Assembly: GCA_964549615.1 (NCBI GenBank)
Contig: CAZJVP010000048.1
Location: 4,896-68,895, forward strand
Direction of reading: 5' to 3'
DNA: 64,000 nt
Source of the DNA: an uncultured Thermococci archaeon
GTDB lineage: Archaea; CAYQAE01; CAYVLA01
Positions 33,353-53,390 of this stretch are shown here, in pieces (the stretch's first letter is position 1; every line of letters starts with the position of its first letter). The position numbers and the translations under genes are program-made. The notes under the pieces are model-generated. The model did not search any database and was not told the DNA's origin. It was given only the letters and a program-made list of their open reading frames with translations.

Positions 33353-33712
33353 TTGCGAAGCAGGAAGACCAACGCGGTCATCGCACGCTTGATCGACTCC
33401 CTTAGGGCTCTCTCTCACGAGACAGGGGCAGCCATATGGAAGGATCTCTCCGTGAGGCTATCCAAGAGCACAAGGCGGATGCCGGCGGTCAACGTTGGCG
33501 AGATATCCGCAAGAACCGAGCCGGAGGACCAGGTCGCCGTACCGGGCAAGGTTCTCGGTTTCGGCAGCCTCAACCACCGCGTGATCGTGGCGGGCGTGGG
33601 CTTCAGCGCAGCGGCCCGGAGGAAGATAGCCGCAGCAGGCGGCGAGTGCATTAGCTTGATGGATCTCGCCAAGAGGAACCCGAAGGGGTCCAAAGTCAAG
33701 ATCATGATCTGA
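33353..33712 (+). CDS. rpl18e: 50S ribosomal protein L18e
   Basis: Size, basic composition and position directly before rpl13-rps9-rpoN. The KDLSVRLSKSTRRMPAVNVGEI and VAGVGFSAAARRKI blocks are typical. Confidence 0.9.
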   Translation: MRSRKTNAVIARLIDSLRALSHETGAAIWKDLSVRLSKSTRRMPAVNVGEISARTEPEDQVAVPGKVLGFGSLNHRVIVAGVGFSAAARRKIAAAGGECISLMDLAKRNPKGSKVKIMI

Positions 33713-33722
33713 GGAACCGACG

Positions 33723-34163
33723 ATGATCGTAGTTGATGCAAGCGACCAGATACTCGGAAGGATGGCCTCCATCGTAGCCAAGCGATTGCTGGAAGGGGAA
33801 ACGGTTGCAGTCGTCAACTGCGAGAAGGCAGTGGTCACGGGCAATCCAACCGTCACGTATGCAAGGTACAAGACCAAGTATGATCTTGGACGCGTCGTCA
33901 ACCCAACCAAGGGGCCTTTCTTTCCCAGGACCCCCGATAGAATCGTGAGCCGCGCGATAAGGGGAATGCTGCCCTTCAGTAAGCCCCGGGGAAAGGCGGC
34001 TTTCCGTCTCCTCCGTGTCTACAGGGGAGTGCCTGATTCGCTGAAGGACGCCCCCCTGTTGAGATTCGAGGAGGCGGGCGTGGACCGCCTGGGGAGGAAG
34101 AAGTACACGACGGTCGGCGATATCTCGCTTGCGCTCGGCGTCAAGAGGGAGATGGTGTTTTGA
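33723..34163 (+). CDS. rpl13: 50S ribosomal protein L13
   Basis: The start VVDASDQILGRMASIVAKRLLEGETVAVVNCEKAVVTG is classic for L13. Confidence 0.95.
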   Translation: MIVVDASDQILGRMASIVAKRLLEGETVAVVNCEKAVVTGNPTVTYARYKTKYDLGRVVNPTKGPFFPRTPDRIVSRAIRGMLPFSKPRGKAAFRLLRVYRGVPDSLKDAPLLRFEEAGVDRLGRKKYTTVGDISLALGVKREMVF

Positions 34164-34564
34164 ACGAAGTACCGCTCACGGTCTCGGCCAGGTTCAAGCG
34201 GGCGACCGCAAGGGCGACCCTCCGGGAGGGCAACGGCGAACTCAGGATCGACAGGAAGCCGCTCGACGTCTACGGGACCGAGCTGGCCAGAGAGAGGATA
34301 CGCGAGGTGCTCTATCTGGCCGGAGACGCGACGAAGAAGGTGGACATCAGCGTTCACGTTGAAGGCGGTGGGATCTCGGGCCAGACCAATGCGATCCGCA
34401 CCAGCATTGCCACGGGCCTGATCCAGTGGACCAAGGATCCGAACCTGAGGCAGAAGTTCATGGAGTACGACCGTTCCATCGTCAAGGGCGACGCTAGAGT
34501 AAAGGAATCCAAGAAGGCGGGCCGCAGGAGGGCCAGGGCCAAGAAACAGAAGAGCTACAGGTAG
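34160..34564 (+). CDS. rps9: 30S ribosomal protein S9
   Basis: GGGISGQTNAIRTSIA block and the C-terminal ...RRRARAKKQKSYR. Confidence 0.95.
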   Translation: MNEVPLTVSARFKRATARATLREGNGELRIDRKPLDVYGTELARERIREVLYLAGDATKKVDISVHVEGGGISGQTNAIRTSIATGLIQWTKDPNLRQKFMEYDRSIVKGDARVKESKKAGRRRARAKKQKSYR

Positions 34565-34570
34565 GTTGGC

Positions 34571-34774
34571 ATGATCATACCGATTAGATGCTTCACATGC
34601 GGCAAGCTGATAGGGGACAAGTACGAGGCTTACAAGGAGCGGGTTGGCTTCGGGGAGAAGCCAGAGGATGTGCTACGTGACCTCGGCATCAACCGCTACT
34701 GCTGCAGAAGGATGCTGATCTCGCACGTCGACCTGATGGACGAGGTCATAAAGTACAAGAAGCCATCGGCCTAG
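34571..34774 (+). CDS. rpoN: DNA-directed RNA polymerase subunit N (Rpo10)
   Basis: [12 protein letters not shown] ... RYCCRRM zinc-binding motifs; 67 aa. Confidence 0.95.
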
Positions 34775-35058
34775 ACCGTCTTGAACCTTCTGTCGGGCAA
34801 AGGACCGACGTAGGGCGTGACCGAGACCTTCTCGTTCTTTGAGAGGTTGAAAACCCTGACTATCTCGGGGGCAAGCCCGATGGTCCCTGGCTCCACCTCG
34901 TCCTCGACAATCTTGCCTATGAGCGTCCCTATCTCGAAGTTTATCTGGACCCATTCGCCCGGCTCCAGTCCCATCTTCCTAATATCGTCCACGTTCATCT
35001 TAACTATGTCGCGCATGTAAGCGCTCCTTGCCGCGAACTCAAACACCCGCCCCGACAT
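34771..35058 (-). CDS. Small stand-alone double-psi beta-barrel-like protein (Cdc48/VAT N-domain-like)
   Basis: The pattern [22 protein letters not shown]...[25 protein letters not shown] resembles the two psi-loop halves of VAT-N. A strong SD (GGGAGGAGGG) lies between it and the upstream gene stop. Confidence 0.5.
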
Positions 35059-35073
35059 CGTCCCTCCTCCCGA

Positions 35074-36288
35074 TCACTCCCTCTCGATAAGCTTGGTCAC
35101 CCTTACCTCCTTGTACAGCCGCCTCCTCACCATCAGGCTCCAGAGTAGAAAGCCCGCGACCATCGAGGTGCCGGAGACGACGAGCCATTCTGCCATAAAG
35201 ATCCAGAAAAGAGCCCTGTCCTTTGCTTCCAAGACCTCTTGGGTCATAGCGTCGAGTTCGGCCAAGAGGCTCGACAGCCCGGATCGGCACTCCTCCAGCT
35301 CCTGAACCACGTACTGCTTGTCCACGGCTGCTTTGGCCGCGCCGAGCTCGCCTAGCCTCATCTCAACCTGCCTCAGATTGGCGCCGAACCTGTCGGCGAA
35401 GTCTATCGTCGAGACAAGGTATGTCCTCCTGTAGTGGAACTGGTTGAAGAGCGCCCTTATTTCGTGTACGAGCTCGAGGTCCTGCGGGATGGGGACGCGC
35501 GCCGGGAAGTATATCAGATGCGACAGCACATCGATGTGCCACTTCCAGCGGTAGAAATCGGGCGTGCCGTGCCACTTGTGCACATATGCCACGGACCTCC
35601 CCTCGCCGTAGTCCCAGTAGACGATCACGGGCTTGTTGCGGTTGTAGGGGACCTCCGGGGACATCCTAGCCAAGACTGTGGCGCCTTCCCTCTCCCAGGG
35701 GCGGTTGTGCGCCCATATCCTTATCTCGTGCCAGGGAAGGTTGCGCATCAAGGGATGATCGCGGTACTCCTCCTCAACGATTATGTGGAAGCCGTGCTGC
35801 TCGTAGTATATCGCCGCCTTGTCGTCGACAGGGAGGATGTCCCCGATCGGGTGTAGATACCAAGAGGTGTGTCTGCCGCTGGTCGCAAAGCTCGACGAGT
35901 CGTCAGCCATCAGGAAACCCATGCCCTCGTTCCGGACCCCTTCCTTAACCCAGTTCTGAAAGTCGTCCCGCAGGTGGCTTGCATCCATCCCGTCCTCTAT
36001 GACCACATCAAAATTGTCGTAAAGCGCGCGCTGGCTTCTCGGCAGATACATTCGGAGACACCGGAAAGCCTCCTCGCCCATTGACCACGCGTGAGCCGGA
36101 ACGGGATAGTAGCTGATTCGAGGATCCTGGCTGAGCACGGGGCCTGGGTGTCCAGGGTAGAACCATGCCTTGCCGATGTGAAGCAGGCGAATCACGCCGT
36201 TGGCGTCGGTCCTTGCGTCGAACTCGCCCGATGCCTGGGAAAGTGCGATAGCGATGAGGACCGCAAAGGCGAACAGCCCTTTTCGCAC
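35074..36288 (-). CDS. Uncharacterised secreted, tail-anchored protein, family A paralog 1 (GATase1-like ectodomain suspected)
   Basis: Signal peptide MRKGLFAFAVLIAIALSQASG. Shared blocks with 43206-44429 and 48093-49394: GVIRLLHIG, LRMYLPRS, FDVVIEDG..GMGFLM, STIDFADRFGAN. Then a coiled coil and the C-terminal ALFWIFMAEWLVVSGTSMVAGFLLWSLMVRRRLYKEVRVTK. Confidence 0.8.
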   Translation of the reverse strand: MRKGLFAFAVLIAIALSQASGEFDARTDANGVIRLLHIGKAWFYPGHPGPVLSQDPRISYYPVPAHAWSMGEEAFRCLRMYLPRSQRALYDNFDVVIEDGMDASHLRDDFQNWVKEGVRNEGMGFLMADDSSSFATSGRHTSWYLHPIGDILPVDDKAAIYYEQHGFHIIVEEEYRDHPLMRNLPWHEIRIWAHNRPWEREGATVLARMSPEVPYNRNKPVIVYWDYGEGRSVAYVHKWHGTPDFYRWKWHIDVLSHLIYFPARVPIPQDLELVHEIRALFNQFHYRRTYLVSTIDFADRFGANLRQVEMRLGELGAAKAAVDKQYVVQELEECRSGLSSLLAELDAMTQEVLEAKDRALFWIFMAEWLVVSGTSMVAGFLLWSLMVRRRLYKEVRVTKLIERE

Positions 36289-36308
36289 GCGTATCGGTAG
36301 GCCTTCAT

Positions 36309-36319
36309 CTTAGAAAAAC
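36309..36319 (-). promoter_or_regulatory. TATA-like box for family A paralog 1
   Basis: The minus strand reads GTTTTTCTAAG, centred about 26 nt upstream of the GTG at 36288. Confidence 0.4.
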
Positions 36320-36395
36320 TTGCTGGTATCAGGCGCCAAGGATGCCATGGATGGGGTTTCAGGCTTGCGCGCGATTCCCCTTGACGAACCGGAAT

Positions 36396-37160
36396 TTACA
36401 CCGCGTAGCCGCCGTCCAGCACCCTTATTTCGTAGAGGATGGCCCTGAAGAGCCAAAGCCCAAAGGCGCAGGAAACCACTAGGGGAAGGAGGGCGAGAGG
36501 GCCGGGCAGGTGCTCGCTCCCGAGGGCCGCGAAGAGGAATATGGCAAAGTTGTACAGGGCATGGTACGTGACGGCCATGGCGTACCGGGTTATCCAGAAG
36601 CCCCCCAGTAACTTCTGGGTGGATATGCCGGATCCCGAGATCGCGCCCGTGGCGCCGTGAAGCGAGGCTGAGCCAAGCGACCTTACGACGATCAGCACTG
36701 CGATCGACGCCAAGCCCGCAGCCTGACCCAGGGCGAGGCTTTCCTGTTTCCAGGAAACGAAGAAGTACATGACGTTCTCAGTCGCAGCGAAACCGAAGCC
36801 TGCCGCCGCCCCGTACACAAGGCCGTCCTCGATCTCGTCGAAAAAGGGCTTGTTGCGCAACAGAAGGACGGGGAGGGCTTTGGTGAACTCCTCGAAGATG
36901 GGGGCCAGGACGACGATGCCAAGAAGCAGGGTGCTCCTCTGGGCGGCATTGGTCGCCGTCGCGTAGATATCCACGACCACCTGCCCGGCCATCTCGAGGA
37001 CCAAGGCCAAGCCCGTCGAGACGACGGCACCGAGAGCGAAAACCTCTAGGACTCTGCCGAAGGGTTCCCTTCGCGTCAGCTCTGAGCGCCTCACCCACAG
37101 AACGTAGAAAATGCATGGAACGAAGCCCATAGCGATGAGGGCCAGCTCCTCTTGGATCAC
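36396..37160 (-). CDS. PrsW-family intramembrane protease
   Basis: Polytopic membrane protein with APIFEEFTKALPV, GAAAGFGFAATENVMY and SLHGATGAISG motifs. The GTG at 37160 is preferred because a TATA box lies 26 nt upstream. The ORF-track start at 37328 overlaps the divergent GH38 gene. Confidence 0.75.
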   Translation of the reverse strand: MIQEELALIAMGFVPCIFYVLWVRRSELTRREPFGRVLEVFALGAVVSTGLALVLEMAGQVVVDIYATATNAAQRSTLLLGIVVLAPIFEEFTKALPVLLLRNKPFFDEIEDGLVYGAAAGFGFAATENVMYFFVSWKQESLALGQAAGLASIAVLIVVRSLGSASLHGATGAISGSGISTQKLLGGFWITRYAMAVTYHALYNFAIFLFAALGSEHLPGPLALLPLVVSCAFGLWLFRAILYEIRVLDGGYAV

Positions 37161-37180
37161 ACCCCGCGCCACAGGTTGGA

Positions 37181-37190
37181 GGATAAATAT
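37181..37190 (-). promoter_or_regulatory. TATA box for the PrsW gene (in the divergent intergenic region)
   Basis: The minus strand reads ATATTTATCC, centred about 26 nt upstream of the GTG at 37160. Confidence 0.45.
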
Positions 37191-37261: not shown

Positions 37262-40200
37262 GTGAGCATGGATCTGCCGACGGAGCTCGAACAACTGCAT
37301 GAAATGCTCGAAAGGAGTCTGCTAGCACGCTTGGAGTGGAAATGCATTGGGCTGGACGTGCCCGGCGCCCACAGGGTCGTCTTCGACGACTCCGGTTGGT
37401 CGGGCCAGGGAGCGCTGGCTGGGCGGCTGTGGAACGTCGGGTGGTTCAGGACCCAATTCACCATCCCGGAACTCCTAGACGGCTGTGCCTTGGAGGTTTC
37501 ACCGATCATGGGGGGAAGGAGTCGGGTCTTCGTCAACGGCAGGCTGATCGGGAGTTGCGGTGCCGGCGGCTCGGTGCCGACCCCGAAGGTCAGGGGCGGG
37601 AGTGTCCTCACCCTGGCAATAAGGAACGAGAATGGCTGGATAAGCTATGAAAACCCGTGCCCTGCCACCATCAGGTGTGAGCGTCAGGCAATATTGCTTG
37701 GCATCTTCGAGGAACTCTTCTTCCTCCGGAGACTAGAGCAGGCCGGCGGCCGGGAGAGTTCTGAGATCAGCAGGTGCCTTGAGTCATTCTTGGAAGCGGT
37801 TGATCGGGAGGCGCTTGCCCACGGCCAGATCGATTGTTTCGTCCAGTCCCTCGCCAAGGCACGGGACGCGCTCCTGCCAGCTGCCAATCTATTGAAGCGC
37901 TATACAATCTACGTCGTGCCACATTCCCATGTTGACCTAGCGTGGGGATGGACCTACGAGGAGACGAAGAGGATAATGAGGACGATCTTTGACCGGGCAA
38001 CCGAGCTTCTGGATGATGACCCCAACTATACCTTCGCCCAGGACCAACCGCCGGCTTACAACCACCTAGAGGGAACGGGGCTCATGGAAAAGGTCGCCCG
38101 TTACGTCGGCGAGGGCAGGCTGGACCCCTGCGGGGCGATGTACTCGGAGCCCGAGGGCAACATGCCGTGCGGGGAATCCTTCGTCCGCCAGGTAATGCTC
38201 ACCAAGAGATACTTTCAGGATAGGTTCGGCGCCGACCCGAAGGGGTGCTGGAATCTGGACTCCTTCAGCGGCCATTGCTGGAGCCTCCCCCAGATCCTGA
38301 CGAAATCCGGGGTGCGCTACTACACCTTCGCAAACTGGGGGAACCTCATCCCGGACGTGGAGTTCTGGTGGGAGGGGCCGGACGGATCGCGAGTTCTCGC
38401 CTACCATCTTCCTTGCCACTACGATAGTGCACAGATGATGGAGCACAACAAGATACTCCAAAACTTCTTTGGCTATGCTTCCAGATCCAAATTCAAGCGC
38501 TTCATGTTCCTCGACGGCGATGACCTAACTCCGCCCGTGCGCGACAGCATCGAGGGCGTCAAGTGGTTCAGCCAGTTGGCGGTCGGCCCAACGGTGAAGT
38601 TCTCCACGCCGGCGAAGTTCTTTGAGGATCTGGAGAAGGACGACCTTTCAGCGATCCCCACCTACCGGGGGGAACTCGCCCAGCACCTCGATCCTAACGG
38701 CAGCAACAACGCCGGGTCGTACACCACGCATTGCGAAGTCAAGAGAAGGAACAGGCTCTGTGAGAATCTCCTCCTGACGGCGGAGAAGTTCGGCTCCATC
38801 GCGATGCTTCTTGGAATGGAGTTCCCGAGGGCGCTCATGCAACGGGGATGGGAGGCCGTGCTCCTCAACCAGATGCACGACATCCTGCCCGGTACCGCGA
38901 TCAAGGAAGCCTATGAGGAGGCTCATCGCCGATACGATGAAGCGGAAGCGATCGCGAAGGAGACGATCGCGCTCTCCCTTGGACGGATCTCCGCAAGGAT
39001 CGATACCCGCGGCAAGGGGACGCCGATCGTAGTCTTCAATTCCCTCAGCTGGGAGAGAACCGATGTCGTTGAGGTGAAGGTCACCCTCGATCACACCTAC
39101 AAGGCTTGGCCTAGGATCACCGGGCCCGACGGAGAAGAGGCCGAGTGCCAGGTGCTGCACGACAGCCGGGGAACGTTCGACAAGACCAATAGAAGCATGA
39201 CCATCCTCTTCGTCGCAAGAAAGGTGCCGGCCCTGGGCTACAAGCTCTACCGCCTCACCCTAGACGGCAGGCGCCCACGGTCCGCGGGGAGGGTCTCCAA
39301 GGTGAGCCAGTTCACCCTGCAGAACGAGTATCTGGAAGCCGTGATCGATGCTCAAACCGGCCTCGTCCGATCGCTGAAGCGGGGAGGGCGGGAGTTCATT
39401 TCGGGACCCGAGGGCTTCCTGTTGGTAAGGTACCTAGATAGCGGCGACCCCTGGCACATCAGGCTCGTCGGGGATGCCTCCAAGCTCATACGCGCCCAGT
39501 CGGTGGAACTTGTGGAGGCCGGCCCTGTCCGCACCACGGTGAGGATCTGCAGGAAGGATGGGAACACCCAGATCGTTCAGGAGGTGTCGTTGTGCAAGTC
39601 CGTGCCAAGGCTTACTTGCCGGACGACCTTGGACTGCGGCGACCTTTACGTCCTGTTCAAGGCCTCGGTTCCGGTCAATGTCGGTCCGGCCAAGGCCACC
39701 TTTGAGATACCTTTCAGCACGATCTCCAGAGAGGCCGCGGGCATCGACAGGCCGGCGCAGAACTGGGTTGATTTGTCCGACGGGGAGCGCGGCCTCGCCG
39801 TCCTGAACGATGGCAGGTACGGCTACGACATAGATGGCGGAAGAAGGATCAGGTTAACGTTGCTGAGGAACCCTAAGGGACATCGCTCCAACGAGGGAAC
39901 GGACTCCGGCCCCCACTCAACCTCGCTGGGTCTCTTCCCGCATGAAGGTGACTGGACATCCGGGGTAGTCCGCCAGGGCCTGGAGTTCAACAACCCCCTG
40001 CTCTGCCACGTGGACAGCCCGCACGAAGGCGACCTTCCCACCGCTTTGTCGTTTCTCTCCCTCTCGGCCCCCAATGTGGTGGTGTCCTGCCTTAAGCCCC
40101 ACGAGGACTCCAAAGACCTTGTCCTGCGCATCTATGAGGCCCACGGATCCCGTGTCGACGATGCCGGGATACGGGGCAGGATCGGGTTCGAGGGACTGGA

Positions 40201-40318
40201 GGAGATCGACATGACGGAGAGGGAAACGGTGGGGACGCTTGCTGGGAAGGCACCCGTTGTGCTCTCCCCTTATGAGATCAAGACCTTGAGGATGAAGGCG
40301 CCGCGGATTCGATTTTGA
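37262..40318 (+). CDS. Glycoside hydrolase family 38 alpha-mannosidase
   Basis: GH38 N-terminal catalytic motif YVVPHSHVDLAWGWTYEET, ~1000 aa and no signal peptide. Confidence 0.9.
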   Translation: MSMDLPTELEQLHEMLERSLLARLEWKCIGLDVPGAHRVVFDDSGWSGQGALAGRLWNVGWFRTQFTIPELLDGCALEVSPIMGGRSRVFVNGRLIGSCGAGGSVPTPKVRGGSVLTLAIRNENGWISYENPCPATIRCERQAILLGIFEELFFLRRLEQAGGRESSEISRCLESFLEAVDREALAHGQIDCFVQSLAKARDALLPAANLLKRYTIYVVPHSHVDLAWGWTYEETKRIMRTIFDRATELLDDDPNYTFAQDQPPAYNHLEGTGLMEKVARYVGEGRLDPCGAMYSEPEGNMPCGESFVRQVMLTKRYFQDRFGADPKGCWNLDSFSGHCWSLPQILTKSGVRYYTFANWGNLIPDVEFWWEGPDGSRVLAYHLPCHYDSAQMMEHNKILQNFFGYASRSKFKRFMFLDGDDLTPPVRDSIEGVKWFSQLAVGPTVKFSTPAKFFEDLEKDDLSAIPTYRGELAQHLDPNGSNNAGSYTTHCEVKRRNRLCENLLLTAEKFGSIAMLLGMEFPRALMQRGWEAVLLNQMHDILPGTAIKEAYEEAHRRYDEAEAIAKETIALSLGRISARIDTRGKGTPIVVFNSLSWERTDVVEVKVTLDHTYKAWPRITGPDGEEAECQVLHDSRGTFDKTNRSMTILFVARKVPALGYKLYRLTLDGRRPRSAGRVSKVSQFTLQNEYLEAVIDAQTGLVRSLKRGGREFISGPEGFLLVRYLDSGDPWHIRLVGDASKLIRAQSVELVEAGPVRTTVRICRKDGNTQIVQEVSLCKSVPRLTCRTTLDCGDLYVLFKASVPVNVGPAKATFEIPFSTISREAAGIDRPAQNWVDLSDGERGLAVLNDGRYGYDIDGGRRIRLTLLRNPKGHRSNEGTDSGPHSTSLGLFPHEGDWTSGVVRQGLEFNNPLLCHVDSPHEGDLPTALSFLSLSAPNVVVSCLKPHEDSKDLVLRIYEAHGSRVDDAGIRGRIGFEGLEEIDMTERETVGTLAGKAPVVLSPYEIKTLRMKAPRIRF

Positions 40319-42385: not shown

Positions 42386-43213
42386 CTAGCTCGACTTAGC
42401 GCCGATCCAGTTGATGGCCATGGGGCCAGCGCCGAACCCGGTCTCCGTGGTTACGAACTGGATGATCCCAGCATGGCCAAACATGTACAGCGTGTCGAGG
42501 GTTACCTCCAGATGCACCCTCTCCCCCGCCGAGAGGTCATGGAAATGAAGCATGCCAAACGGGGCCTCGGCGATGCTGGCGCACGGCTCCTCGCCCGGGG
42601 CGGACTTGGACTTGAAGCAGATCGATTCCCTGGGGGATGTGTACCTGATGCTGCTGATGACAGTGTTCCGCGAGAAGAAGAAATCCCTGTACCCGCAGAA
42701 TGTGCTAACCCTGCCTCCCTCGCCGACGAGGAGTGCGTAGACCGTGTAGACCGACCCAAGGATCTCCTCTCCTGCTAGGGCGGCCATAGCGTCGGTGAAG
42801 TCGAAGAGGTACATCTTCCCGCCGAGTTCCAGCTCAAAGACTTGGTATGTCGGCTGTCCACCCAACTGGGCCTGCATGGAGTCGAGGAAGGCCTTTGTCT
42901 CCCTAAACCTAGGCACGTTCGCGATCATGTCCTCAAGACTGCGCCCCGTCGTCTCATTCCACGGCTTGACCAGCGGCACGGAGAGGTTCACTAGGAAATG
43001 AAACCGAACTACTAGGTCCGGAAGGTCGCGGACCGCCATCAAGTCTATGGAGTAGCTAGGCGACCCGGGCACGCCGCCGGGGATGTCGCTAGGCGTGCGC
43101 TGGGCGAGGACCCTGACGACCTCCTTCTCACGGATGCCGAAAGTCAAGAAGGAGACAAGCGTCGTGATGACGAGTATGATTGCAAGGAAGCCCGCCAGGC
43201 GCCGGTCAACCAC
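42386..43213 (-). CDS. Uncharacterised N-terminally anchored membrane protein, family B paralog 1
   Basis: The N-terminus MVDRRLAGFLAIILVITTLVSFL parallels MDRQLIGVLAVSLVAATLVTLI of 49398-50177. The GTG start overlaps the family A stop by 8 nt (GTGGTTGA), and the SD GGGGAGG lies inside the upstream gene. Confidence 0.7.
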   Translation of the reverse strand: MVDRRLAGFLAIILVITTLVSFLTFGIREKEVVRVLAQRTPSDIPGGVPGSPSYSIDLMAVRDLPDLVVRFHFLVNLSVPLVKPWNETTGRSLEDMIANVPRFRETKAFLDSMQAQLGGQPTYQVFELELGGKMYLFDFTDAMAALAGEEILGSVYTVYALLVGEGGRVSTFCGYRDFFFSRNTVISSIRYTSPRESICFKSKSAPGEEPCASIAEAPFGMLHFHDLSAGERVHLEVTLDTLYMFGHAGIIQFVTTETGFGAGPMAINWIGAKSS

Positions 43214-44429
43214 TTAAACCGCCTCCCCTCGTCACCTTGACCTCCCTGTAGAGCCTCCTCTTCACCATCAGCGTCCAGACCACGAATCCGCATATGAGCC
43301 CAGTCGCGCTGACGACGAGCCATTCCGTGATGAAGATCCAGAACAGGGCCAGATCCCTTGCCTCGAGGGCTAGGTCATAGGCCTCCTGAAGCATCCCGAA
43401 GACCTCATCTGCGATCTGCTTGCTCTCCACAAGTTCCAGGTCGACGAAATGCTTCTTGGCTTCCTTCAGCCGCGCGTCGGCTTCCGAGAGCTTCCTGTCG
43501 ACCTTCCTCGTGTCGGCGCCGAACTTGCTGATGAAGTCGATCGTCCCGGTGATCACCTGGGTCTCGTCGTAGACGTCCTTGAAGCGCTGGCGGGTGGCGT
43601 GAAGGAGGTTGATGTCGGAAGGGGGCGTAAGCCCCGCTAGGAAATACACCATATTGCACACGAAGTCAGGATAGTGTTTCCAACGGATGAATCCCCGGCC
43701 AGCGGATCCCCCCCGGAAGCCGGGCGCTGATGCAAAGAACCGGCCCTTGCCCACGTCCCACCAGACCCACCCAGGGTCCCTGAGGCCCACGCCGGTGCCA
43801 CCCAGGCGGATCACCTGCGAGAGCTCGTGCGCACCCTCCTTCAGTTCGACGACGTTGTACCCGCCGAAGACGTTGTGCTGCTCATACTCGTCCCAAGGCA
43901 CGCTGCGTATGAAAGCATCATCTGGAGCCGTGACGACGGTCTTCCCGTCGGGGCCGTATGTGCTTGTGCACTTGACCGGCATCACCTCGCTGAGAACCGT
44001 TGCATCCCACGAGGGGAAGCCGGCACCGCCCCCGAACGACTCAAATCCGCCAGCCATGAACAAGCCAAGCGCGCTGTCCCTGCAGGCGTCGGCCATCCAC
44101 TGGATGGTGTTTGGAGGAAAGGCGTACCACGTCGTATCATCCAAGCCGATGATGTCGCAGCTAGCCACCATGCTGGCCTTGGTCCTGGGCATGTAAAGGC
44201 GCATGGCCCTCTGAACCAGGGTACTTGGAAGGCCGTACATGTTCCCGGCGATGGGCGTCGCGGAGATCAGGGGGTCGAATTTGTAAACCTGGTAAGGGCA
44301 TGCCGCAAACGGCTGCCCGATGTAGATGACCCGGATGACGCCGGTTTCTGGATCGCGCTTCAACTCCTTGCCTGCTGCCGTCGCAAGGAGGAGGATAGCA
44401 CATATGCCCAGAACGGCCCCCGGCCGCAT
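43206..44429 (-). CDS. Uncharacterised secreted, tail-anchored protein, family A paralog 2
   Basis: Signal peptide MRPGAVLGICAILLLATAAG. Blocks GVIRVIYIG, MRLYMPRT, CDIIGLDD..LGLFMAGG and GTIDFISKFGAD, then a coiled coil and the C-terminal ALFWIFITEWLVVSATGLICGFVVWTLMVKRRLYREVKVTR. Confidence 0.8.
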   Translation of the reverse strand: MRPGAVLGICAILLLATAAGKELKRDPETGVIRVIYIGQPFAACPYQVYKFDPLISATPIAGNMYGLPSTLVQRAMRLYMPRTKASMVASCDIIGLDDTTWYAFPPNTIQWMADACRDSALGLFMAGGFESFGGGAGFPSWDATVLSEVMPVKCTSTYGPDGKTVVTAPDDAFIRSVPWDEYEQHNVFGGYNVVELKEGAHELSQVIRLGGTGVGLRDPGWVWWDVGKGRFFASAPGFRGGSAGRGFIRWKHYPDFVCNMVYFLAGLTPPSDINLLHATRQRFKDVYDETQVITGTIDFISKFGADTRKVDRKLSEADARLKEAKKHFVDLELVESKQIADEVFGMLQEAYDLALEARDLALFWIFITEWLVVSATGLICGFVVWTLMVKRRLYREVKVTRGGGLSG

Positions 44430-48092: not shown

Positions 48093-49394
48093 GTGGACGC
48101 CGAGACCCGGACCTGGGCCGGACAGATAGCCGTTTCCCTGCCTTGGCGAACCTGCGCACCTCTCTTCAAGCCTAGGCACGTGGCCGGGTTCCTTGTTATC
48201 TGGGTCTTGGTCGGAGTGTCCCCGGCCCGCAGCGCGCCCGCCGAGCGGATCAAGATCATACTCACCGGCAGGGCGTACGAGGGCTCCCTGATGAGGAACT
48301 GGTTCGTAAACGAACCCATGGCGGATCCCATCGCGATACCGACCCGCGATGTTCCGGGCGGGATTGAGGAGGGCAGGCGGTACGTCAGGATGTACTTCCC
48401 TCGAACCTACGAGCGGCTTGCGGAATGCGACTTCGTGATCTTCGAGGGAACCGAGATGGTGCACTTCTCGCACACGCAACAGAAGTGGCTACATGATGCC
48501 ATAAGGGACCATGGCATGGGTGGCCTGAACTCCAGGAGCGTGCTGAGCGCCGTTTACTATGGCCAGTGGATTGCATCCGTGACCCAGCTGGCCTTCCCCA
48601 ACGACGTTGACGCCGTCATCGCGGGTCCGGGGTGGAAGTTCGGCCAGACCATGGAGATAGTGCTGAACGATGACCCGAGCCTCAGGCCAGTCCTTCTCAT
48701 GTTCAAGGACAAACCCATCAAATGGAAGCTTACAAACTACGACGCGATGGTCGTCGTTCCGAGACCCGGTGCCACGATCTGGTCCTGGATCAAAGGACCG
48801 TTCCCGGAGCTTTCGATCCCATGGCCGGGGTACACGCCGCACTTGATCTCTTGGACGTATGGCAACGGAACGACCTGGACCTGCCATGACAGGACAGTCA
48901 ACTGGTGGCAGGACATTCGCGATGCAAATCCATACGGGCTGGACATGATAATGAACATGATCCTCTACAGCACCGGGAGGGATCTTCCCCAGGACATAGA
49001 CCTCATTCATTCGATTCGAAGGCGGTTCACCGAGTTTGGGACGAGGAAAACGCTCGTCATCTCGACGATCGAGCTCGGACAGAAATTCGGTGCAAGCATG
49101 ACGCGAGCGGAGGCGAGCTTAACGGAGCTGGAGAAGCTTTACCTCGCGGCCAGGGAGGCCTATGTGGAGCAGAGGGAGGTCGAGGCCTCCGATCTCGTTA
49201 ACCGGCTCATAGAGGGCTCAAGACATGCCAACGAGGTGGCCATGGAGGAACTCAACCGGGCCCTGCTGTGGATCCACGTCATCAACTGGCTCGTGGTGTG
49301 CGGCACGTTCATGGCCTCTGGGTTCGTGCTCTGGAGCCTGATGGTCAGAAAGAAGCTCTACAGGGAAGTGGCGTCGACGCGGCTGGGAGGCTAG
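48093..49394 (+). CDS. Uncharacterised secreted, tail-anchored protein, family A paralog 3
   Basis: Hydrophobic N-terminal segment VAGFLVIWVLVGVSPARSAPA. Blocks ERIKIILTG, VRMYFPRT, CDFVIFEG..HGMGGLN and STIELGQKFGAS, then a coiled coil and the C-terminal ALLWIHVINWLVVCGTFMASGFVLWSLMVRKKLYREVASTR. Confidence 0.8.
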   Translation: MDAETRTWAGQIAVSLPWRTCAPLFKPRHVAGFLVIWVLVGVSPARSAPAERIKIILTGRAYEGSLMRNWFVNEPMADPIAIPTRDVPGGIEEGRRYVRMYFPRTYERLAECDFVIFEGTEMVHFSHTQQKWLHDAIRDHGMGGLNSRSVLSAVYYGQWIASVTQLAFPNDVDAVIAGPGWKFGQTMEIVLNDDPSLRPVLLMFKDKPIKWKLTNYDAMVVVPRPGATIWSWIKGPFPELSIPWPGYTPHLISWTYGNGTTWTCHDRTVNWWQDIRDANPYGLDMIMNMILYSTGRDLPQDIDLIHSIRRRFTEFGTRKTLVISTIELGQKFGASMTRAEASLTELEKLYLAAREAYVEQREVEASDLVNRLIEGSRHANEVAMEELNRALLWIHVINWLVVCGTFMASGFVLWSLMVRKKLYREVASTRLGG

Positions 49395-49397
49395 GGG

Positions 49398-50177
49398 TTG
49401 GACAGGCAGCTCATCGGCGTGTTAGCGGTGTCTCTGGTGGCCGCGACATTGGTCACGCTCATTGCGGCGGCGGAGAAGGAAAGGATTCTGGTCTCGGGGG
49501 TTTTCTGCCCGGAGTACATGGCGCAGTCGAGCGCCGAGTACTGCTTCGGCGTAAGCTTCATCACGACTCGGAACCTTGCGGATGTTGAGGTCCGGGCTTG
49601 CACCCTTTCAGGCCTGACGCCGGAATCGTTTGGTCTGAAACCCGACGAGCAGGATCCCGAGCTCTACCCGCCTATCAGTATCCTCAGGGAGGAATCATCC
49701 CGGTTGGGCGTCGAGATCCAAGCTAGCCGGTTCGAGCTCAACGGTGACTCATCGTCGCAGCAGATCGTCTACTACGATTTTCTCCCGCTGTTGGAACGTC
49801 TCTTCATCGATCCGGCGCGCTTGCCGCTTGGTCGGATCACAACCTGCTATGGTTTCTTCCGCCGAGCGGGGAAGCTTGAGACTTGTTTCAAGGGTAGCGG
49901 TGAGATCTTTCCGGCTGAAAGCTCCTCGCTCAACAAGATCCTCGTAGAGGTGGACGGGCGCCCGCGGTACGGCTGGGAGAGAGGCACTGGCCCTGAGAGG
50001 CAGGCGCGAGGGATCAGAGTGGGAGAGGTTACCAAGGGCAGCCGAGTGGACGTCCTGTATTACATAGACGGACGGTGGGCGAGAGTGGGATCGCTACTTT
50101 GGAAGCTGGACGTGATTGCGGGAGGCGAGGTCCTCTACTCGAGGGTGCGTCTTATCAACGTGGCCGGCTCTGCCTAG
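49398..50177 (+). CDS. Uncharacterised N-terminally anchored membrane protein, family B paralog 2
   Basis: The TTG start lies 3 nt after the family A stop, with the SD GGGAGG inside the upstream gene. N-terminal TM as in 42386-43213. Confidence 0.65.
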   Translation: MDRQLIGVLAVSLVAATLVTLIAAAEKERILVSGVFCPEYMAQSSAEYCFGVSFITTRNLADVEVRACTLSGLTPESFGLKPDEQDPELYPPISILREESSRLGVEIQASRFELNGDSSSQQIVYYDFLPLLERLFIDPARLPLGRITTCYGFFRRAGKLETCFKGSGEIFPAESSSLNKILVEVDGRPRYGWERGTGPERQARGIRVGEVTKGSRVDVLYYIDGRWARVGSLLWKLDVIAGGEVLYSRVRLINVAGSA

Positions 50178-50582
50178 CCGCCGACGCGGTTTGGACAAGC
50201 GCTTGTCCTCTGCCTTGCGTCGAGCTGGGCGAAAAACCAGGCAAAATGCTTCTCTCGGCTCTGCCAGCCGTGTTAGGTAAAGGGACATATGTTACACTTT
50301 TCCGCCTCCCCGCTCCGGCGGCCTTCCACCGAGCGATCAAGTTTGGTATGCCCATCGATGCACAGGGCTCCGAACAAAATATTCGGGAGGCGGGTTGAGT
50401 CCTTTCTCTCCTCCGGGGAGGAAGAAACCTCAAGAAGTCAGTCCGCCCATTCGAGATATTCGGTCGCGGGCCGGAGCGCCATGACTCCCCATGACTCCTC
50501 GGACTGAGGCATGGAGAGTCCTCTGCAGAGTGTAACATATGTGGGTTTACCCAACACTCGGCTCTGCCTGCCAGCCGAAATG

Positions 50583-50590
50583 CTTTTAAG
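50583..50590 (+). promoter_or_regulatory. TATA-like box for the second FG-GAP gene
   Basis: CTTTTAAG lies about 35 nt upstream of the ATG at 50622. Confidence 0.4.
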
Positions 50591-50621
50591 TGCGCATACT
50601 CAGTGGATAGGCGGCGGTTCC

Positions 50622-52079
50622 ATGAGAGGTTCAACCAAGGGAATTGCCTTTGCAGCAGGACTTGCAGCGGTGCTGGCGATTCTTATGCCCTCAGCGTTGG
50701 CACTGCCAAAGATGAGGGTCAAATGGACGTTCAACGTCACGCCGATAGTCTCGACGGGCTTCGCATGGACGATCGTCTTGCAGGCAGACCTCGACGGAGA
50801 CGGAATGCTAGAGACGGTCCTAGGGACGGAGAAGGGCGGCAGAATGGTCGCGGTTGGTCCAACGGGAAAGCTGGTCTGGGTCTTCCCACCCCTGGACTCG
50901 GACATAGTTCCACAGCTCATAAACAAGGTGCCCTCGATCGATGACATCGATGGCGATGGCAAGCCGGAAGTACTCTTCGGCTGGGGTGCGGCCCCCAACG
51001 GCGCGGTGTACTGCATCAACTGGGACGGAAAGCTTAAGTGGGTGTGGACCGACCCTGAGGGGCAGGCGCATTTCAGGTACGGAGGAACGCTTGCCAGGGA
51101 CTTCGACGGCGACGGAAAGAAGGAGGTCGTGGCGGCCGGGAGCGATGCCAAAGTCTACATGTTTAGCCATACGGGCCAGCTCAAGTGGGTCAAGTTCCTT
51201 CCACCAGGGAGGGCCGTGGACAGCATGATCAATGCTTTCGACGTTGACCGTGACGGCGAGTTGGAGATCCTTGCGTTCTCGCGGTCCCTCGGGGAGGGCC
51301 CGGGAACGGAGGGCGGCTTGAACGGCGTCTTCTACTGCCTGAGCAAGGATGGTCAGGAGAAGTGGACCTGGAGTTCCCCGGGCTGGACCGACTGGCTCCA
51401 CAACATGCCCACGGTGGCGGACGTCAACGGCGACGGTGAGTATGAGATCGTTTTCGGTCTCTGGAGGCTCGACTCAGGCGACCGGGGCGGAATAGTCATA
51501 CTCAGCTTCTACGGAACGGAGATCGCAAGGAAACAGGTGGCCAGCGGCAACGTAGCGCACAATGCCATGTTGGCCGACATCGACGAGGATGGCAGGTTCG
51601 AAATACTCATCGGCATCAGAGCCGGGCTCTACTACTGCTTCCATCCCGACCTGAAGGAGAAGTGGGCCTTCAACATCACAAAGATCATCGGGCAGGTCGG
51701 CAGGCCTGTCAACATGGGTGGGGCCTTGGGCGATGTGACGGGCGACGGCAAGATAGACGTAGTCTTCCAGAGCTGGAACAACAACACGATCTTCGTCTTG
51801 GACAGGTTTGGAAACCTCGCCGCTGAGCCCTACAACCTCAAAGTCGACGCGACGGGCTCGGTTGCGATCGGAGACATCGATAAGGACGGCAAGTCGGAGA
51901 TCGTCGCATTCGCAGGACCAATCCTATACTGTCTGACCTTGGATGCGCCATACAATGCCAAGACATTCGTCTGGCCGATGTACGGCAAGGATGCTGCCAA
52001 CACCGGAGCAGTCCCCATACCAGAGGCGTTGATAGGGTTGCTAGCCCTGTTGGCCGTGCCGCTTCTGCGCAAGCGGTAG
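50622..52079 (+). CDS. Secreted FG-GAP/VCBS-repeat beta-propeller protein with C-terminal tripartite anchor/sorting-like signal
   Basis: Signal peptide MRGSTKGIAFAAGLAAVLAILMPSALA. Eight repeats (ADLDGDGMLETVL, DDIDGDGKPEVLF, RDFDGDGKKEVVA, FDVDRDGELEILA, ADVNGDGEYEIVF, ADIDEDGRFEILI, GDVTGDGKIDVVF, GDIDKDGKSEIVA). The protein ends ...GAVPIPEALIGLLALLAVPLLRKR. Confidence 0.85.
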   Translation: MRGSTKGIAFAAGLAAVLAILMPSALALPKMRVKWTFNVTPIVSTGFAWTIVLQADLDGDGMLETVLGTEKGGRMVAVGPTGKLVWVFPPLDSDIVPQLINKVPSIDDIDGDGKPEVLFGWGAAPNGAVYCINWDGKLKWVWTDPEGQAHFRYGGTLARDFDGDGKKEVVAAGSDAKVYMFSHTGQLKWVKFLPPGRAVDSMINAFDVDRDGELEILAFSRSLGEGPGTEGGLNGVFYCLSKDGQEKWTWSSPGWTDWLHNMPTVADVNGDGEYEIVFGLWRLDSGDRGGIVILSFYGTEIARKQVASGNVAHNAMLADIDEDGRFEILIGIRAGLYYCFHPDLKEKWAFNITKIIGQVGRPVNMGGALGDVTGDGKIDVVFQSWNNNTIFVLDRFGNLAAEPYNLKVDATGSVAIGDIDKDGKSEIVAFAGPILYCLTLDAPYNAKTFVWPMYGKDAANTGAVPIPEALIGLLALLAVPLLRKR

Positions 52080-52124: not shown

Positions 52125-53390
52125 ATGACGGAGTCAGGGCCCCACAAGAGCATCCTCATTCTTTGGGCGTTCACGTTGATTCTCAGCATCGCCGGCTGTT
52201 CCGGCGCTAAGGTCTTCACCCAGAGGAACGGGCTGGCGGGCCAGAAGGTAGCGGTCGTCGCGGGCAGCCCGGAGACGGTCTGGGTCTACAGTTACTATCA
52301 GATTCCGTCGGGAACAGGCTTCGAGGTCATAGGTGGCGTCAGCGAGTTCAAAGCATTGGGAAACTGGACGACGTACACGAAGGATGACGGCCTGGCAAGC
52401 GCAGTGGTCTACAGCATTGCCATAGATGGTAAGTCGGTCTGGTTTGGCACAGCAGACGGGGCGAGCCTGTTTGACAAGTCGAAGGGCACCTGGCGAACCT
52501 TCAAGACCGCGGATGGGCTGGTCTCAAACGACGTCTTGTCCATCGCAGCCGGGCCGGACAAGGTATGGCTCGGCACCAAACAAGGCGTGTCGGTATACGA
52601 AAAGGCCTCTGGCAAGTGGAGTTCGCTCACCGAGGAGGACGGGCTCATCTTCAGGTACGTCAGGGACATCGCTTTGGACGGCGACGTGGCGTACTTCGCG
52701 ACGAGCAAGGGCGTCAGTAGATTTGACTCGGCGACCGGCGAGTGGCAGTCGATAACGAAGGACAACGGCCTTAAAGACAACATGGTCAACTGCATCGTGG
52801 TTGGGTTCGATTCGATCTGGTTTGGAACGCCGGCAGGCGTCTGCCGTCTTGAGAAGGCGACGGGCAGCTGGACATACTACGGTGAGGGCGAGGGTCTGTC
52901 CCCAGAGGGAGTATCGGCAGCGGCAATCGGGAAGGATGCAGTCTGGTTCCTTACCGGGAAGGAGGTTGCGAGCTTTATGCCTGCCAAGCAGAAGTGGAGG
53001 ATCTATAGCGAGGGCCTATCGGAGACCCAGCTCAACGATATCGCTGTGGGAAAAGGGTATGTCTGGGTCGCGACAAACAACGGGTTGATCCGACTGGGCG
53101 GCGGCTTCTCTGCGTTGCACATAGTGATGCTAGCAGTAGTGGTCTGTGCCGCGATCGGATCCGTGTATGCCCTTCGCGGCCGTCGACGGGCCGGAGCCAA
53201 AGCGGAGGAACCGAGGAGGAAGGCACCCGAGCGTCCGCCGTACGCCGCGTGCGGGGGCCAGCCATCGGCGCAAAACTGCCCGCGCTGCAAGTACAACGTT
53301 CTCAGCGGCGGAAGCCTGTATTGCAGCAAGTACGGCAAGAAGGTTGACTACGGACGTCCAGGGAAAGGCCAGGAACCCGCCCCGCCGTAG
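52125..53390 (+). CDS. Two-component-regulator-propeller (Reg_prop)-repeat protein with TM helix and cytoplasmic zinc ribbon
   Basis: Repeats VWFGTADGASLFDKSKGTWRTF, VWLGTKQGVSVYEKASGKWSSL, AYFATSKGVSRFDSATGEWQSI, IWFGTPAGVCRLEKATGSWTYY and VWVATNNGLIRL. TM ALHIVMLAVVVCAAIGSVYAL and tail CPRCKYNVLSGGSLYCSKYG. Confidence 0.8.
   Translation: MTESGPHKSILILWAFTLILSIAGCSGAKVFTQRNGLAGQKVAVVAGSPETVWVYSYYQIPSGTGFEVIGGVSEFKALGNWTTYTKDDGLASAVVYSIAIDGKSVWFGTADGASLFDKSKGTWRTFKTADGLVSNDVLSIAAGPDKVWLGTKQGVSVYEKASGKWSSLTEEDGLIFRYVRDIALDGDVAYFATSKGVSRFDSATGEWQSITKDNGLKDNMVNCIVVGFDSIWFGTPAGVCRLEKATGSWTYYGEGEGLSPEGVSAAAIGKDAVWFLTGKEVASFMPAKQKWRIYSEGLSETQLNDIAVGKGYVWVATNNGLIRLGGGFSALHIVMLAVVVCAAIGSVYALRGRRRAGAKAEEPRRKAPERPPYAACGGQPSAQNCPRCKYNVLSGGSLYCSKYGKKVDYGRPGKGQEPAPP

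What the first reader, a model, noticed from the sequence alone, without database searches (positions are those of the whole stretch)
34771..37190. PrsW-type intramembrane protease directly upstream of a tail-anchored protein carrying a family-specific C-terminal TM domain: candidate new sorting/processing pair
Seen: the PrsW-like gene (36396-37160) is followed on the same strand by family A paralog 1. The three family A paralogs are only loosely similar in their ectodomains, but their last ~42 residues align without gaps. A1 reads ALFWIFMAEWLVVSGTSMVAGFLLWSLMVRRRLYKEVRVTK, A2 reads ALFWIFITEWLVVSATGLICGFVVWTLMVKRRLYREVKVTR, and A3 reads ALLWIHVINWLVVCGTFMASGFVLWSLMVRKKLYREVASTR. The nucleotides differ at synonymous sites (A1 GCT CTT TTC TGG ATC TTT versus A2 GCC CTG TTC TGG ATC TTC), so the conservation is at the protein level and not recent gene conversion. 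A polar residue (E or N) sits inside the helix. Established: a signature motif plus TM helix plus basic cluster at the extreme C-terminus is the layout of exosortase, archaeosortase, rhombosortase and myxosortase substrates, and intramembrane proteases can serve as the sorting enzyme. Inference: this C-terminal domain is a recognition element, and the adjacent PrsW-like protease is the obvious candidate partner. I do not recognise this pairing as described.
Basis: partly seen in the sequence, partly recalled or inferred. Interest (0 to 1): 0.8.

Follow-up and report, generated by a model that had tools for sequence, protein, structure and literature searches.

The report
Conserved membrane anchor of expanded archaeal family
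An uncultured archaeon carries dozens of copies of a surface protein that all end in the same nearly invariant membrane helix and short cytoplasmic tail; a membrane protease gene often sits nearby, but nothing shows that it cuts this tail.

Summary
Three paralogs (A1 35074-36288-, A2 43206-44429-, A3 48093-49394+) are 24-27% identical in the ectodomain and 56-66% identical in the last 41 residues. Synonymous differences rule out recent gene conversion. An intact PrsW-family gene (36396-37160-) lies 107 nt upstream of A1.

Family A is a very large lineage-specific expansion: at least 66, 46 and 17 distinct copies in the sampled parts of three related MAGs, and 423 clusters world-wide. The tag sits almost only on this one ectodomain, a non-catalytic GATase1-like fold, so it is not a modular sorting signal. 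Conservation covers the juxtamembrane motif, the whole helix (W, E, W, T, G, W, M) and 11 residues beyond the Arg cluster (LYREVxxTR), unlike tripartite sortase signals.

PrsW is one copy in the sequence sampled and at least as conserved as ribosomal proteins S9, L13 and L18e (RpoN is slightly more so). It lies in an A-rich region in two different neighbourhoods. However, A1 has its own promoter-like box, is missing from this position in the closest relative, and A genes are dense.

Best reading: a retained anchoring and assembly module (about 0.5). PrsW processing remains possible (about 0.25).

The parts
36396..37160 (-). PrsW-family glutamic-type intramembrane protease, 254 aa from GTG 37160
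   Evidence: PF13367 E=4e-28 against gathering score 23.5. Invariant EExxK, EN, H and HxxxN residues are retained. About five to six hydrophobic segments. 13 orthologues at 72-88% identity.
37183..37190 (-). AT-rich TATA-like box (ATATTTAT) about 22-30 nt upstream of the PrsW start
   Evidence: Read from the sequence. Promoter function is inferred from the usual position of archaeal TATA boxes, not shown.
36309..36319 (-). T5 tract and AT-rich box (GTTTTTCTAAG) in the PrsW-A1 spacer, about 21-31 nt upstream of the A1 GTG. Likely PrsW terminator and A1 promoter.
   Evidence: Similar boxes lie 22-35 nt upstream of A2 and A3. A similar AT-rich box (GCTTTTTCAGAA) lies about 50 nt upstream of orf95 in L088, where A1 is absent.
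35074..36288 (-). Family A paralog 1 (404 aa): signal peptide, GATase1-like alpha/beta ectodomain (33-260), three stalk helices (271-300, 306-327, 331-398), the last running through the membrane
   Evidence: PF07090 28.0 bits against cutoff 27. AlphaFold pLDDT 94. Foldseek 2gk3/3soz E about 1e-9. 150 homologues.
35092..35232 (-). A1 C-terminal tag (residues 353-399): KDRALFW-IFMAEWLVVSGTSMVAGFLLWSLMV-RRRLYKEVRVTK
34771..35058 (-). orf95, a small cytoplasmic protein, 15 nt after A1 with a GGAGG upstream. It is the conserved downstream neighbour of PrsW in relatives.
   Evidence: Weak CDC48_N, Molydop_binding and AMP-phosphorylase N-domain hits. PrsW is followed directly by orf95, without A1, in L029, L088, L089 and L091.
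43206..44429 (-). Family A paralog 2 (407 aa); tag at 43227-43367
   Evidence: PF07090 31.3 bits.
42386..43213 (-). Family B partner of A2 (275 aa), start overlapping the A2 stop by 8 nt. N-terminal membrane helix plus a beta-rich domain.
   Evidence: AlphaFold pLDDT 85. No convincing structural neighbour.
48093..49394 (+). Family A paralog 3 (433 aa as the longest ORF; true start uncertain); tag at 49242-49382
   Evidence: No Pfam hit for this copy.
49398..50177 (+). Family B partner of A3 (259 aa), 3 nt after the A3 stop

Best explanation
The conserved last 45 or so residues are the permanent membrane-anchoring and assembly module of a very large paralogous family of type I surface proteins.

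Each protein is exported by an N-terminal signal peptide. It displays a non-catalytic GATase1-like (STM3548 / GH42-trimerisation-domain-like) ectodomain on a three-helix stalk. The last stalk helix continues as the membrane helix and a short cytoplasmic tail.

The ectodomains have diversified. The juxtamembrane motif (KDRAL), the helix with its buried Glu, three Trp and small or polar residues (S/T-G-T...G), and the RRRLYREVxxTR tail are held almost constant. I infer that this is because every paralog must make the same helix-helix and tail contacts, either with each other in an oligomeric stalk bundle or with one shared membrane partner.

On this reading the helix is retained in the mature protein. 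The neighbouring PrsW gene is a slowly evolving housekeeping membrane protease that happens to lie in an A-rich region.

Shown: architecture, fold, expansion, conservation pattern, non-modularity and gene contexts. Inferred: retention of the helix, oligomerisation or partner docking, and the lack of a PrsW role.
For: - Architecture. Two hydrophobic segments only, one N-terminal and one C-terminal. The AlphaFold model (pLDDT 94) shows one continuous helix 331-398 from stalk to tail. The nearest folds are STM3548/STM1381 and the oligomerisation domains of GH42, GH35 and GH112 enzymes. No conserved Cys or His in the ectodomain.
- Non-modularity. In 1.13 Mb of related loci, 151 ORFs hit both the tag and the ectodomain HMMs; the 6 tag-only and 12 ectodomain-only hits look, from their lengths and end sequences, like fragments or frameshifted copies. 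A tag profile run against 1.84 billion representatives gives 423 hits. All 150 listed hits are 468 aa or shorter, and the match ends within a few residues of the C-terminus in all but two. Only 8 of the 122 newly returned hits of at least 100 aa lack the A ectodomain, and these are short chimeric ORFs.
- Conservation pattern. It extends far beyond a signature motif: W0 100%, E5 94%, W6 96%, V9 86%, T12 85%, G17 92%, W21 91%, M24 97%, R27 93%, Y30 95%, V33 83%, T36 98%, R37 81%.
- Independence from local partners. The tag is the same whether or not a B gene follows.
- Weak PrsW linkage. PrsW and A1 each have their own AT-rich box. A1 is absent from this position in the closest relative, with no remnant.
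Against: - No partner or oligomer was demonstrated.
- Conservation shows no significant helical periodicity (permutation p 0.08-0.35), so a single contact face is not established.
- Family-wide, a membrane helix more conserved than the ectodomain, with mid-helix Gly, Ser and Thr, is also what intramembrane-protease substrates look like.
- PrsW lies next to or near an A gene in every contig of the lineage examined, in two unrelated neighbourhoods. A purely incidental reading has to attribute this to A-gene density.
Confidence: 0.5

Rival explanations
1. One reading: the PrsW-like glutamic intramembrane protease recognises the conserved helix and tail of family A proteins and cleaves them. This would be a many-to-one sorting or maturation step, or regulated shedding of the ectodomains.
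For: - The PrsW catalytic residues are intact.
- PrsW is one copy in the sequence sampled around A genes in each of three MAGs and is at least as conserved as ribosomal proteins S9, L13 and L18e across relatives: 87% against 77-85%, and 79% against 63-71% (RpoN is slightly higher).
- In 8 of 11 distinct contigs an A gene directly flanks PrsW, and in L093 A genes flank it on both sides; in L092 an A gene lies upstream and a partial ectodomain-only hit lies downstream. In the other 3 contigs an A gene is two to three genes away.
- This includes a deeper clade (PrsW 44-48% identical) whose neighbourhood is otherwise different.
- The helix carries conserved helix-weakening S/T-G-T and G residues and a conserved juxtamembrane KDRAL motif.
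- CPBP-family glutamic proteases are accepted sortases, including an archaeal one.
Against: - The tag is not modular.
- Conservation of LYREVxxTR beyond the Arg cluster is unlike known sorting signals.
- A1 is missing between PrsW and orf95 in L088, L089, L029 and L091.
- The two genes appear to be separate transcription units.
- A genes are dense, so chance adjacency is about 5-11% per neighbourhood, and only two neighbourhoods are independent.
- PrsW homologues elsewhere are housekeeping-like and occur without A.
- No cleavage evidence exists.
Confidence: 0.25
2. The tag is read by some other machine that is not encoded next to it, for example an unlinked sorting or lipid-attaching enzyme, a transporter or secretion component on which each paralog docks, or a cytoplasmic protein that binds the RRRLYREVxxTR tail for signalling.
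For: - The uniform tag on dozens of otherwise divergent paralogs argues for one common reader.
- The specific conservation of Y30, E32, V33 and T36 on the cytoplasmic side argues for a cytoplasmic or interfacial contact.
- A genes are scattered among sulfatases, glycosidases, oxidoreductases and ABC components.
Against: - No recurrent neighbour other than B (about 10% of A genes) and C was found.
- ABC ATPases near A genes occur at what I judge, without a measured baseline, to be ordinary background frequency.
Confidence: 0.2
3. The similarity is a by-product of recent gene conversion or duplication, or of chance in hydrophobic sequence.
For: The paralogs are numerous and often clustered, which favours recombination.
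Against: - 35-52% of identical residues use different codons, and nucleotide identity is only 65-72%.
- The same residues are fixed in 269 distinct sequences from many samples.
- The regular expression matches exactly three times in six frames of 64 kb.
Confidence: 0.02

Closest known systems
Tripartite C-terminal sorting domains with a cognate membrane protease (PGF-CTERM/archaeosortase A, GlyGly-CTERM/rhombosortase, and MYXO-, JDVT- and CGP-CTERM with CPBP-family myxosortases)
   Same: Located at the C-terminus. A conserved motif sits just outside a membrane helix that is followed by an Arg cluster. There are dozens of carriers per genome. A glutamic-type intramembrane protease gene lies next to at least one carrier. 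JDVT-CTERM also has conserved residues inside the helix.
   Different: Carriers all belong to one protein family rather than many unrelated ones. The whole helix and 11 further tail residues are conserved, and 2-12 variable residues follow. There is no invariant Cys, Gly-Gly, PGF or PEP signature. No NCBIfam or Pfam sorting-domain model matches. Co-occurrence with the protease could not be tested genome-wide.
Bacillus subtilis PrsW and its substrate RsiW (site-1 cleavage of an anti-sigma factor)
   Same: The protease family is the same (PF13367) with the same catalytic motifs. The candidate substrate is a single-pass membrane protein.
   Different: The score against the PrsW equivalog model is 39 against a cutoff of 225. 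Archaea have no sigma or anti-sigma factors. RsiW has the opposite topology (N-in) and is a single regulator, not a 60-member surface family (own knowledge). Substrates of archaeal PrsW homologues are unknown (PMC9263693).
PF07090 GATase1_like / STM3548-like proteins and the GATase1-like oligomerisation domains of GH42-type glycosidases
   Same: The ectodomain fold is the same: Foldseek E=9e-10 to 2gk3 and 6e-9 to 3soz, and about 1e-5 to GH42 domains. Pfam hits for A1 and A2 are just above threshold.
   Different: The solved relatives are soluble cytoplasmic proteins or internal enzyme domains. Family A adds a signal peptide, a three-helix stalk and the conserved helix and tail. Sequence identity is only 16-17% to the STM proteins and 10-14% to the GH42 domains.
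GldG / IFT52 GIFT-domain proteins (auxiliary subunits of ABC-2 transporters)
   Same: A GATase1-like extracytoplasmic domain held at the membrane by terminal helices. The IFT52 N-domain is a Foldseek hit (E=5e-5).
   Different: No PF09822 hit. No consistent linkage to ABC-2 permease genes. This resemblance is a lead, not a tested relationship.

Membership tests
PrsW family (PF13367, glutamic-type intramembrane protease) | Profile match above the curated threshold | tested here: met
   98.7 bits against 23.5, profile positions 1-181 of 196.
PrsW family (PF13367, glutamic-type intramembrane protease) | Conserved EExxK, E-N, H and HxxxN motif residues | tested here: met
   E90, E91, K94, E128, N129, H168 and H200 are invariant and N204 nearly invariant in 20 homologues including the window protein.
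PrsW equivalog (NF033739, B. subtilis-type RsiW protease) | Score above the equivalog cutoff | tested here: not met
   39.1 bits against 225. It is a family member, not a functional equivalog.
C-terminal protein-sorting domains (exosortase, archaeosortase, rhombosortase and myxosortase type) | Tripartite layout: short signature motif, hydrophobic helix, Arg-rich cluster at the extreme C-terminus | tested here: inconclusive
   KDRAL.W, a 26-residue helix and RRR are present. However, conservation fills the helix and continues through LYREVxxTR, followed by 2-12 variable residues.
C-terminal protein-sorting domains (exosortase, archaeosortase, rhombosortase and myxosortase type) | The same tag on many proteins with unrelated N-terminal regions | tested here: not met
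   151 local ORFs carry both tag and A ectodomain, and the 6 tag-only ORFs are fragments. All 150 listed world-wide hits are 468 aa or shorter, and only 8 short chimeric ORFs lack the A ectodomain.
C-terminal protein-sorting domains (exosortase, archaeosortase, rhombosortase and myxosortase type) | Several carriers per genome | tested here: met
   At least 66, 46 and 17 distinct full-length copies in the sampled parts of three MAGs, and 3 in this window.
C-terminal protein-sorting domains (exosortase, archaeosortase, rhombosortase and myxosortase type) | Strict co-occurrence of the tag with one protease subfamily across genomes | tested here: inconclusive
   All three MAGs and all PrsW-orthologue contigs carry both. 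The lineage is narrow, whole genomes could not be profiled, and PrsW homologues occur widely without A.
C-terminal protein-sorting domains (exosortase, archaeosortase, rhombosortase and myxosortase type) | Removal of the helix in the mature protein | not testable with these tools
   This needs proteomics or expression experiments.
PF07090 GATase1_like | Profile match and fold | tested here: met
   A1 scores 28.0 and A2 31.3 bits against a cutoff of 27; A3 has no hit. The A1 model matches 2gk3 and 3soz at E about 1e-9, TM-score on target 0.71.
Class I glutamine amidotransferases (catalytic) | Conserved Cys-His-Glu triad | tested here: not met
   No Cys or His among the invariant or nearly invariant columns of 52 sequences.
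Tail-anchored proteins (as in the finding's title) | A single C-terminal helix and no N-terminal signal sequence | tested here: not met
   An N-terminal hydrophobic signal-peptide-like segment is present in A1, A2 and A3.

The most novel reading that the evidence does not exclude
The family A C-terminal domain is the recognition element of a PrsW-type glutamic intramembrane protease. This would be the first PrsW-based sorting or shedding system and the first natural substrates for any archaeal PrsW. It would work many-to-one on 50 or more surface proteins of a glycan-degrading archaeal lineage.
Probability: 0.22. Interest if true: 0.75.

Novelty: new variant of a known kind. Interest (0 to 1): 0.45.

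Why it matters
Substrates of archaeal PrsW homologues are unknown (PMC9263693). A testable substrate candidate would open that question.

Apart from PrsW, the result stands on its own. A surface-protein family has expanded to at least 66 copies per genome. Its membrane helix and cytoplasmic tail are more conserved than its ectodomain. This points to an undescribed common contact at the archaeal membrane, such as an oligomeric stalk, a shared docking partner or a processing enzyme.

The family sits among sulfatases and glycosidases, so it may be central to how these sediment archaea handle polysaccharides. The tag profile (alignment A4) is also a clean marker for the family in metagenomes.

Tried and rejected
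- Family B as the reason for tag conservation: rejected. Only about 10% of full-length A genes (11 of about 120; 14 of 160 A ORFs) have a B gene downstream, and the tag consensus is the same with and without B.
- One-sided (heptad or 3.6-residue) periodicity of conservation as evidence for a single contact face: not significant (permutation p 0.08-0.35), so not claimed.
- orf95 as a relative of the DUF8091 protein that follows PrsW in the deeper clade: no similarity.
- Known sorting-domain or other curated models for A, B, family C and the FG-GAP protein tail: no hits.
- Function of B from structure: the model is confident (pLDDT 85), but Foldseek matches have TM-scores of 0.3 or less. Hits to archaellins appear to me to reflect only the N-terminal helix plus beta-sandwich layout, and the B N-terminus lacks the charged residue at -2 of class III signal peptides (own knowledge).
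- Taxon names for distant A homologues: the cluster look-up returned no names.
- Literature: no paper in the library links PrsW to C-terminal sorting or describes PF07090 function.
- Gene conversion: rejected.
Full report
**What is in the window.** The window is archaeal, with about 60% G+C, a thermosome gene and the L18e-L13-S9-RpoN cluster. On the minus strand, reading downstream, lie four elements:
- a PrsW-family gene, 36396-37160 (PF13367 E=4e-28);
- a 107-nt spacer;
- family A paralog 1, 35074-36288;
- after 15 nt, a 95-codon ORF, 34771-35058.

A six-frame motif scan finds exactly three carriers of the C-terminal motif: A1, A2 (43206-44429-) and A3 (48093-49394+).

- The three proteins are 24-27% identical before the tag and 56-66% identical over the last 41 aligned residues, with no gaps.
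- Between 35% and 52% of the identical residues are encoded by different codons, and nucleotide identity in the segment is only 65-72%. Selection therefore acts on the protein.
- In a 52-sequence family alignment, residues 361-400 carry 3.0-3.2 bits per column against about 1.6-2.5 elsewhere.

**What family A is.**
- Each copy has an N-terminal signal-peptide-like segment and one C-terminal hydrophobic helix. It is a type I membrane protein, not a tail-anchored one.
- The AlphaFold model of A1 is confident (pLDDT 94, pTM 0.86). It has an alpha/beta domain (33-260) followed by helices 271-300, 306-327 and 331-398. The last helix runs unbroken from the stalk through the membrane into the tail.
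- The nearest solved folds are the PF07090-type proteins STM3548 and STM1381 (E about 1e-9). Next come the GATase1-like oligomerisation domains of GH42 and related glycosidases, and the IFT52 GIFT domain.
- A1 and A2 just pass the PF07090 threshold.
- No Cys or His is conserved, so the domain is not an amidotransferase.

**The family is a very large lineage-specific expansion.**
- A search with A1 returns 150 proteins. The 120 listed are about 400 aa apart from fragments, and nearly all full-length ones end in the same tag.
- A scan of one genome per species matched 164 stretches, of which 160 are relatives. The best 80 all come from three MAGs labelled Hadarchaeota. Two other homologues are labelled Theionarchaea.
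- In the 1.13 Mb fetched I count 160 A ORFs. At least 66, 46 and 17 distinct full-length copies lie in only 451, 467 and 124 kb of the three MAGs.
- Some copies are frameshifted.
- Frequent neighbours are sulfatases, URO-D-like proteins, FAD and Gfo/Idh/MocA oxidoreductases and ABC ATPases. In this window a GH38 alpha-mannosidase lies next to PrsW.

**The tag is not modular.**
- With separate HMMs for tag and ectodomain, 151 ORFs in the loci hit both. The 6 tag-only and 12 ectodomain-only hits look, from their lengths and end sequences, like fragments.
- A 60-position tag profile (alignment A4) searched against 1.84 billion representative proteins finds 423 hits at E<=1e-3 and 378 at E<=1e-10.
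- Every one of the 150 listed hits is 468 aa or shorter, and the match ends within a few residues of the C-terminus in all but two.
- Among the 122 newly returned hits of at least 100 aa, only 8 lack the A ectodomain. These are short chimeric ORFs.
- This fails a defining property of the sortase-type signals, which decorate unrelated proteins.

**The conservation pattern is also unusual for a sorting signal.** Across 269 distinct C-termini the fixed positions fall into four groups:
- juxtamembrane: K-6 (86%), A-3 (95%), L-2 (79%);
- helix: W0 (100%), E5 (94%), W6 (96%), V9 (86%), T12 (85%), G17 (92%), W21 (91%), M24 (97%);
- Arg cluster, including R27 (93%);
- tail: Y30 (95%), E32 (78%), V33 (83%), T36 (98%), R37 (81%), followed by 2-12 variable residues.

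Known tripartite signals have a short motif, a poorly conserved helix and a terminal Arg cluster. The conserved positions show no significant helical periodicity, so I do not claim a single contact face.

**Evidence on the PrsW link.**

*In favour.*
- The catalytic-motif residues are intact.
- The gene is one copy in the sequence sampled around A genes in each MAG.
- It evolves at least as slowly as the neighbouring ribosomal proteins S9, L13 and L18e: 87% against 77-85% in the closest relative, and 79% against 63-71% in the next. RpoN is slightly more conserved.
- An A gene is adjacent or close in every contig of the lineage that carries PrsW.

| Contigs | Gene order around PrsW |
|---|---|
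| window, L001, L002, L082 | PrsW, then A1 |
| L093 | A, PrsW, A1 |
| L092 | A, PrsW, then a partial ORF that hits only the A ectodomain model (the contig ends there) |
| L029 | A, PrsW, orf95 |
| L090 | PrsW, SIS-domain gene, A, B |
| L088, L089, L091 | PrsW, orf95; in L089 an A lies beyond the GH38 gene on the other side, while L088 and L091 end inside GH38 |

In a deeper clade (PrsW 44-48% identical) the neighbourhood is different: the S13-S4-S11 cluster on one side and a DUF8091 gene on the other. An A gene is still divergently adjacent (L078-L080) or three genes away (L081).

*Against.*
- The closest relative (PrsW 88% identical) has no A1 between PrsW and orf95 and no remnant of one. The conserved pair is PrsW with orf95, not PrsW with A1.
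- PrsW, A1, A2 and A3 each have an AT-rich TATA-like box 22-35 nt upstream of the start codon. A similar AT-rich box lies about 50 nt upstream of orf95 where A1 is absent. A1 therefore looks like part of an A1-orf95 transcription unit separate from PrsW. This is an inference from archaeal promoter geometry.
- A genes make up about 3-5% of genes here. I estimate that about 5-11% of genes have one as an immediate neighbour by chance, and only two neighbourhoods are independent.
- PrsW homologues at 40% identity or less in other archaea lie among housekeeping genes with no A within 8 kb.

**Other partners.** A2 and A3 are translationally coupled to family B, which has an N-terminal helix and beta-rich domains (pLDDT 85) and no informative structural neighbour. 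In some loci a third family, C, follows B. Only about one A gene in ten has a B, and the tag is the same with and without it. B therefore does not explain the tag.

**Conclusion.**
- The best-supported reading (about 0.5) is a retained stalk-helix-tail module. It anchors a diversifying family of surface proteins and makes a common contact, either self-assembly or docking on a shared partner.
It has a precedent in the CPBP-family myxosortases and some neighbourhood support. However, it fails the modularity criterion and lacks any evidence of cleavage.
- An unidentified reader encoded elsewhere takes most of the rest.
- No Pfam or NCBIfam model and no paper in the library describes this tag or a PrsW-based sorting system.

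Noticed in passing
L001-L077 (three Hadarchaeota-labelled MAGs); window 35074-36288, 43206-44429, 48093-49394: Family A is one of the largest paralog expansions I have seen in an archaeal genome. At least 66 distinct full-length copies lie in 451 kb of one MAG, often in tandem or divergent clusters, with several frameshifted copies.
   Followed up: partly
window 42386-43213 (-), 49398-50177 (+); L049 5496-8569; L073 14647-17871: There are A-B and A-B-C operons. B (about 275 aa) has an N-terminal helix with an invariant Gly at position 8 and beta-rich domains. C (about 330 aa) has a signal peptide, a domain, a coiled coil and its own, different C-terminal helix. No family matches in Pfam or NCBIfam.
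   Followed up: partly
window 34771-35058 (-): orf95 is a small soluble protein with weak CDC48_N and AMP-phosphorylase N-domain similarity. It is the conserved downstream neighbour of PrsW in this clade (80-92% identical in the two closest relatives, 70-72% in two further ones), and A1 is variably inserted between them.
   Followed up: partly
window 36396-37160 (-) compared with 33353-34774 (+): Across relatives PrsW is at least as conserved as the adjacent ribosomal proteins S9, L13 and L18e (for example 79% against 63-71%; RpoN is slightly higher). This suggests an essential housekeeping role for an archaeal PrsW, whose function is unknown.
   Followed up: no
L078 8788-9486; L081 3321-3986: In the deeper clade PrsW overlaps the start of a gene of about 225 aa that is precomputed as PF26351 (DUF8091). 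This is a likely PrsW operon partner that is absent next to PrsW in the window.
   Followed up: no
window 50511-52079 (+): An FG-GAP / lambda-carrageenase-propeller-like protein ends in ...VPIPEALIGLLALLAVPLLRKR. This is a classical short motif + helix + basic-cluster tail of the sortase-signal type and contrasts with the family A tag. No curated sorting-domain model matched it.
   Followed up: partly
window 37262-40318 (+); loci L014-L076: GH38 alpha-mannosidase, many sulfatases, URO-D-like proteins and FAD or Gfo/Idh/MocA oxidoreductases surround A genes. The lineage looks specialised for degrading (sulfated) glycans.
   Followed up: no
proteins P0238, P0277, P0191, P0211 (metagenome representatives): A few short ORFs fuse the tag to unrelated N-terminal pieces (resembling, by eye, a serine hydrolase, a polysaccharide deacetylase and a thioesterase). 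They are probably remnants of rearranged A genes rather than true modular use.
   Followed up: no
window 52125-53390 (+): A protein with Reg_prop beta-propeller repeats outside, one helix near residue 330, and a Cys-rich, zinc-ribbon-like cytoplasmic tail. It may be a transmembrane sensor.
   Followed up: no
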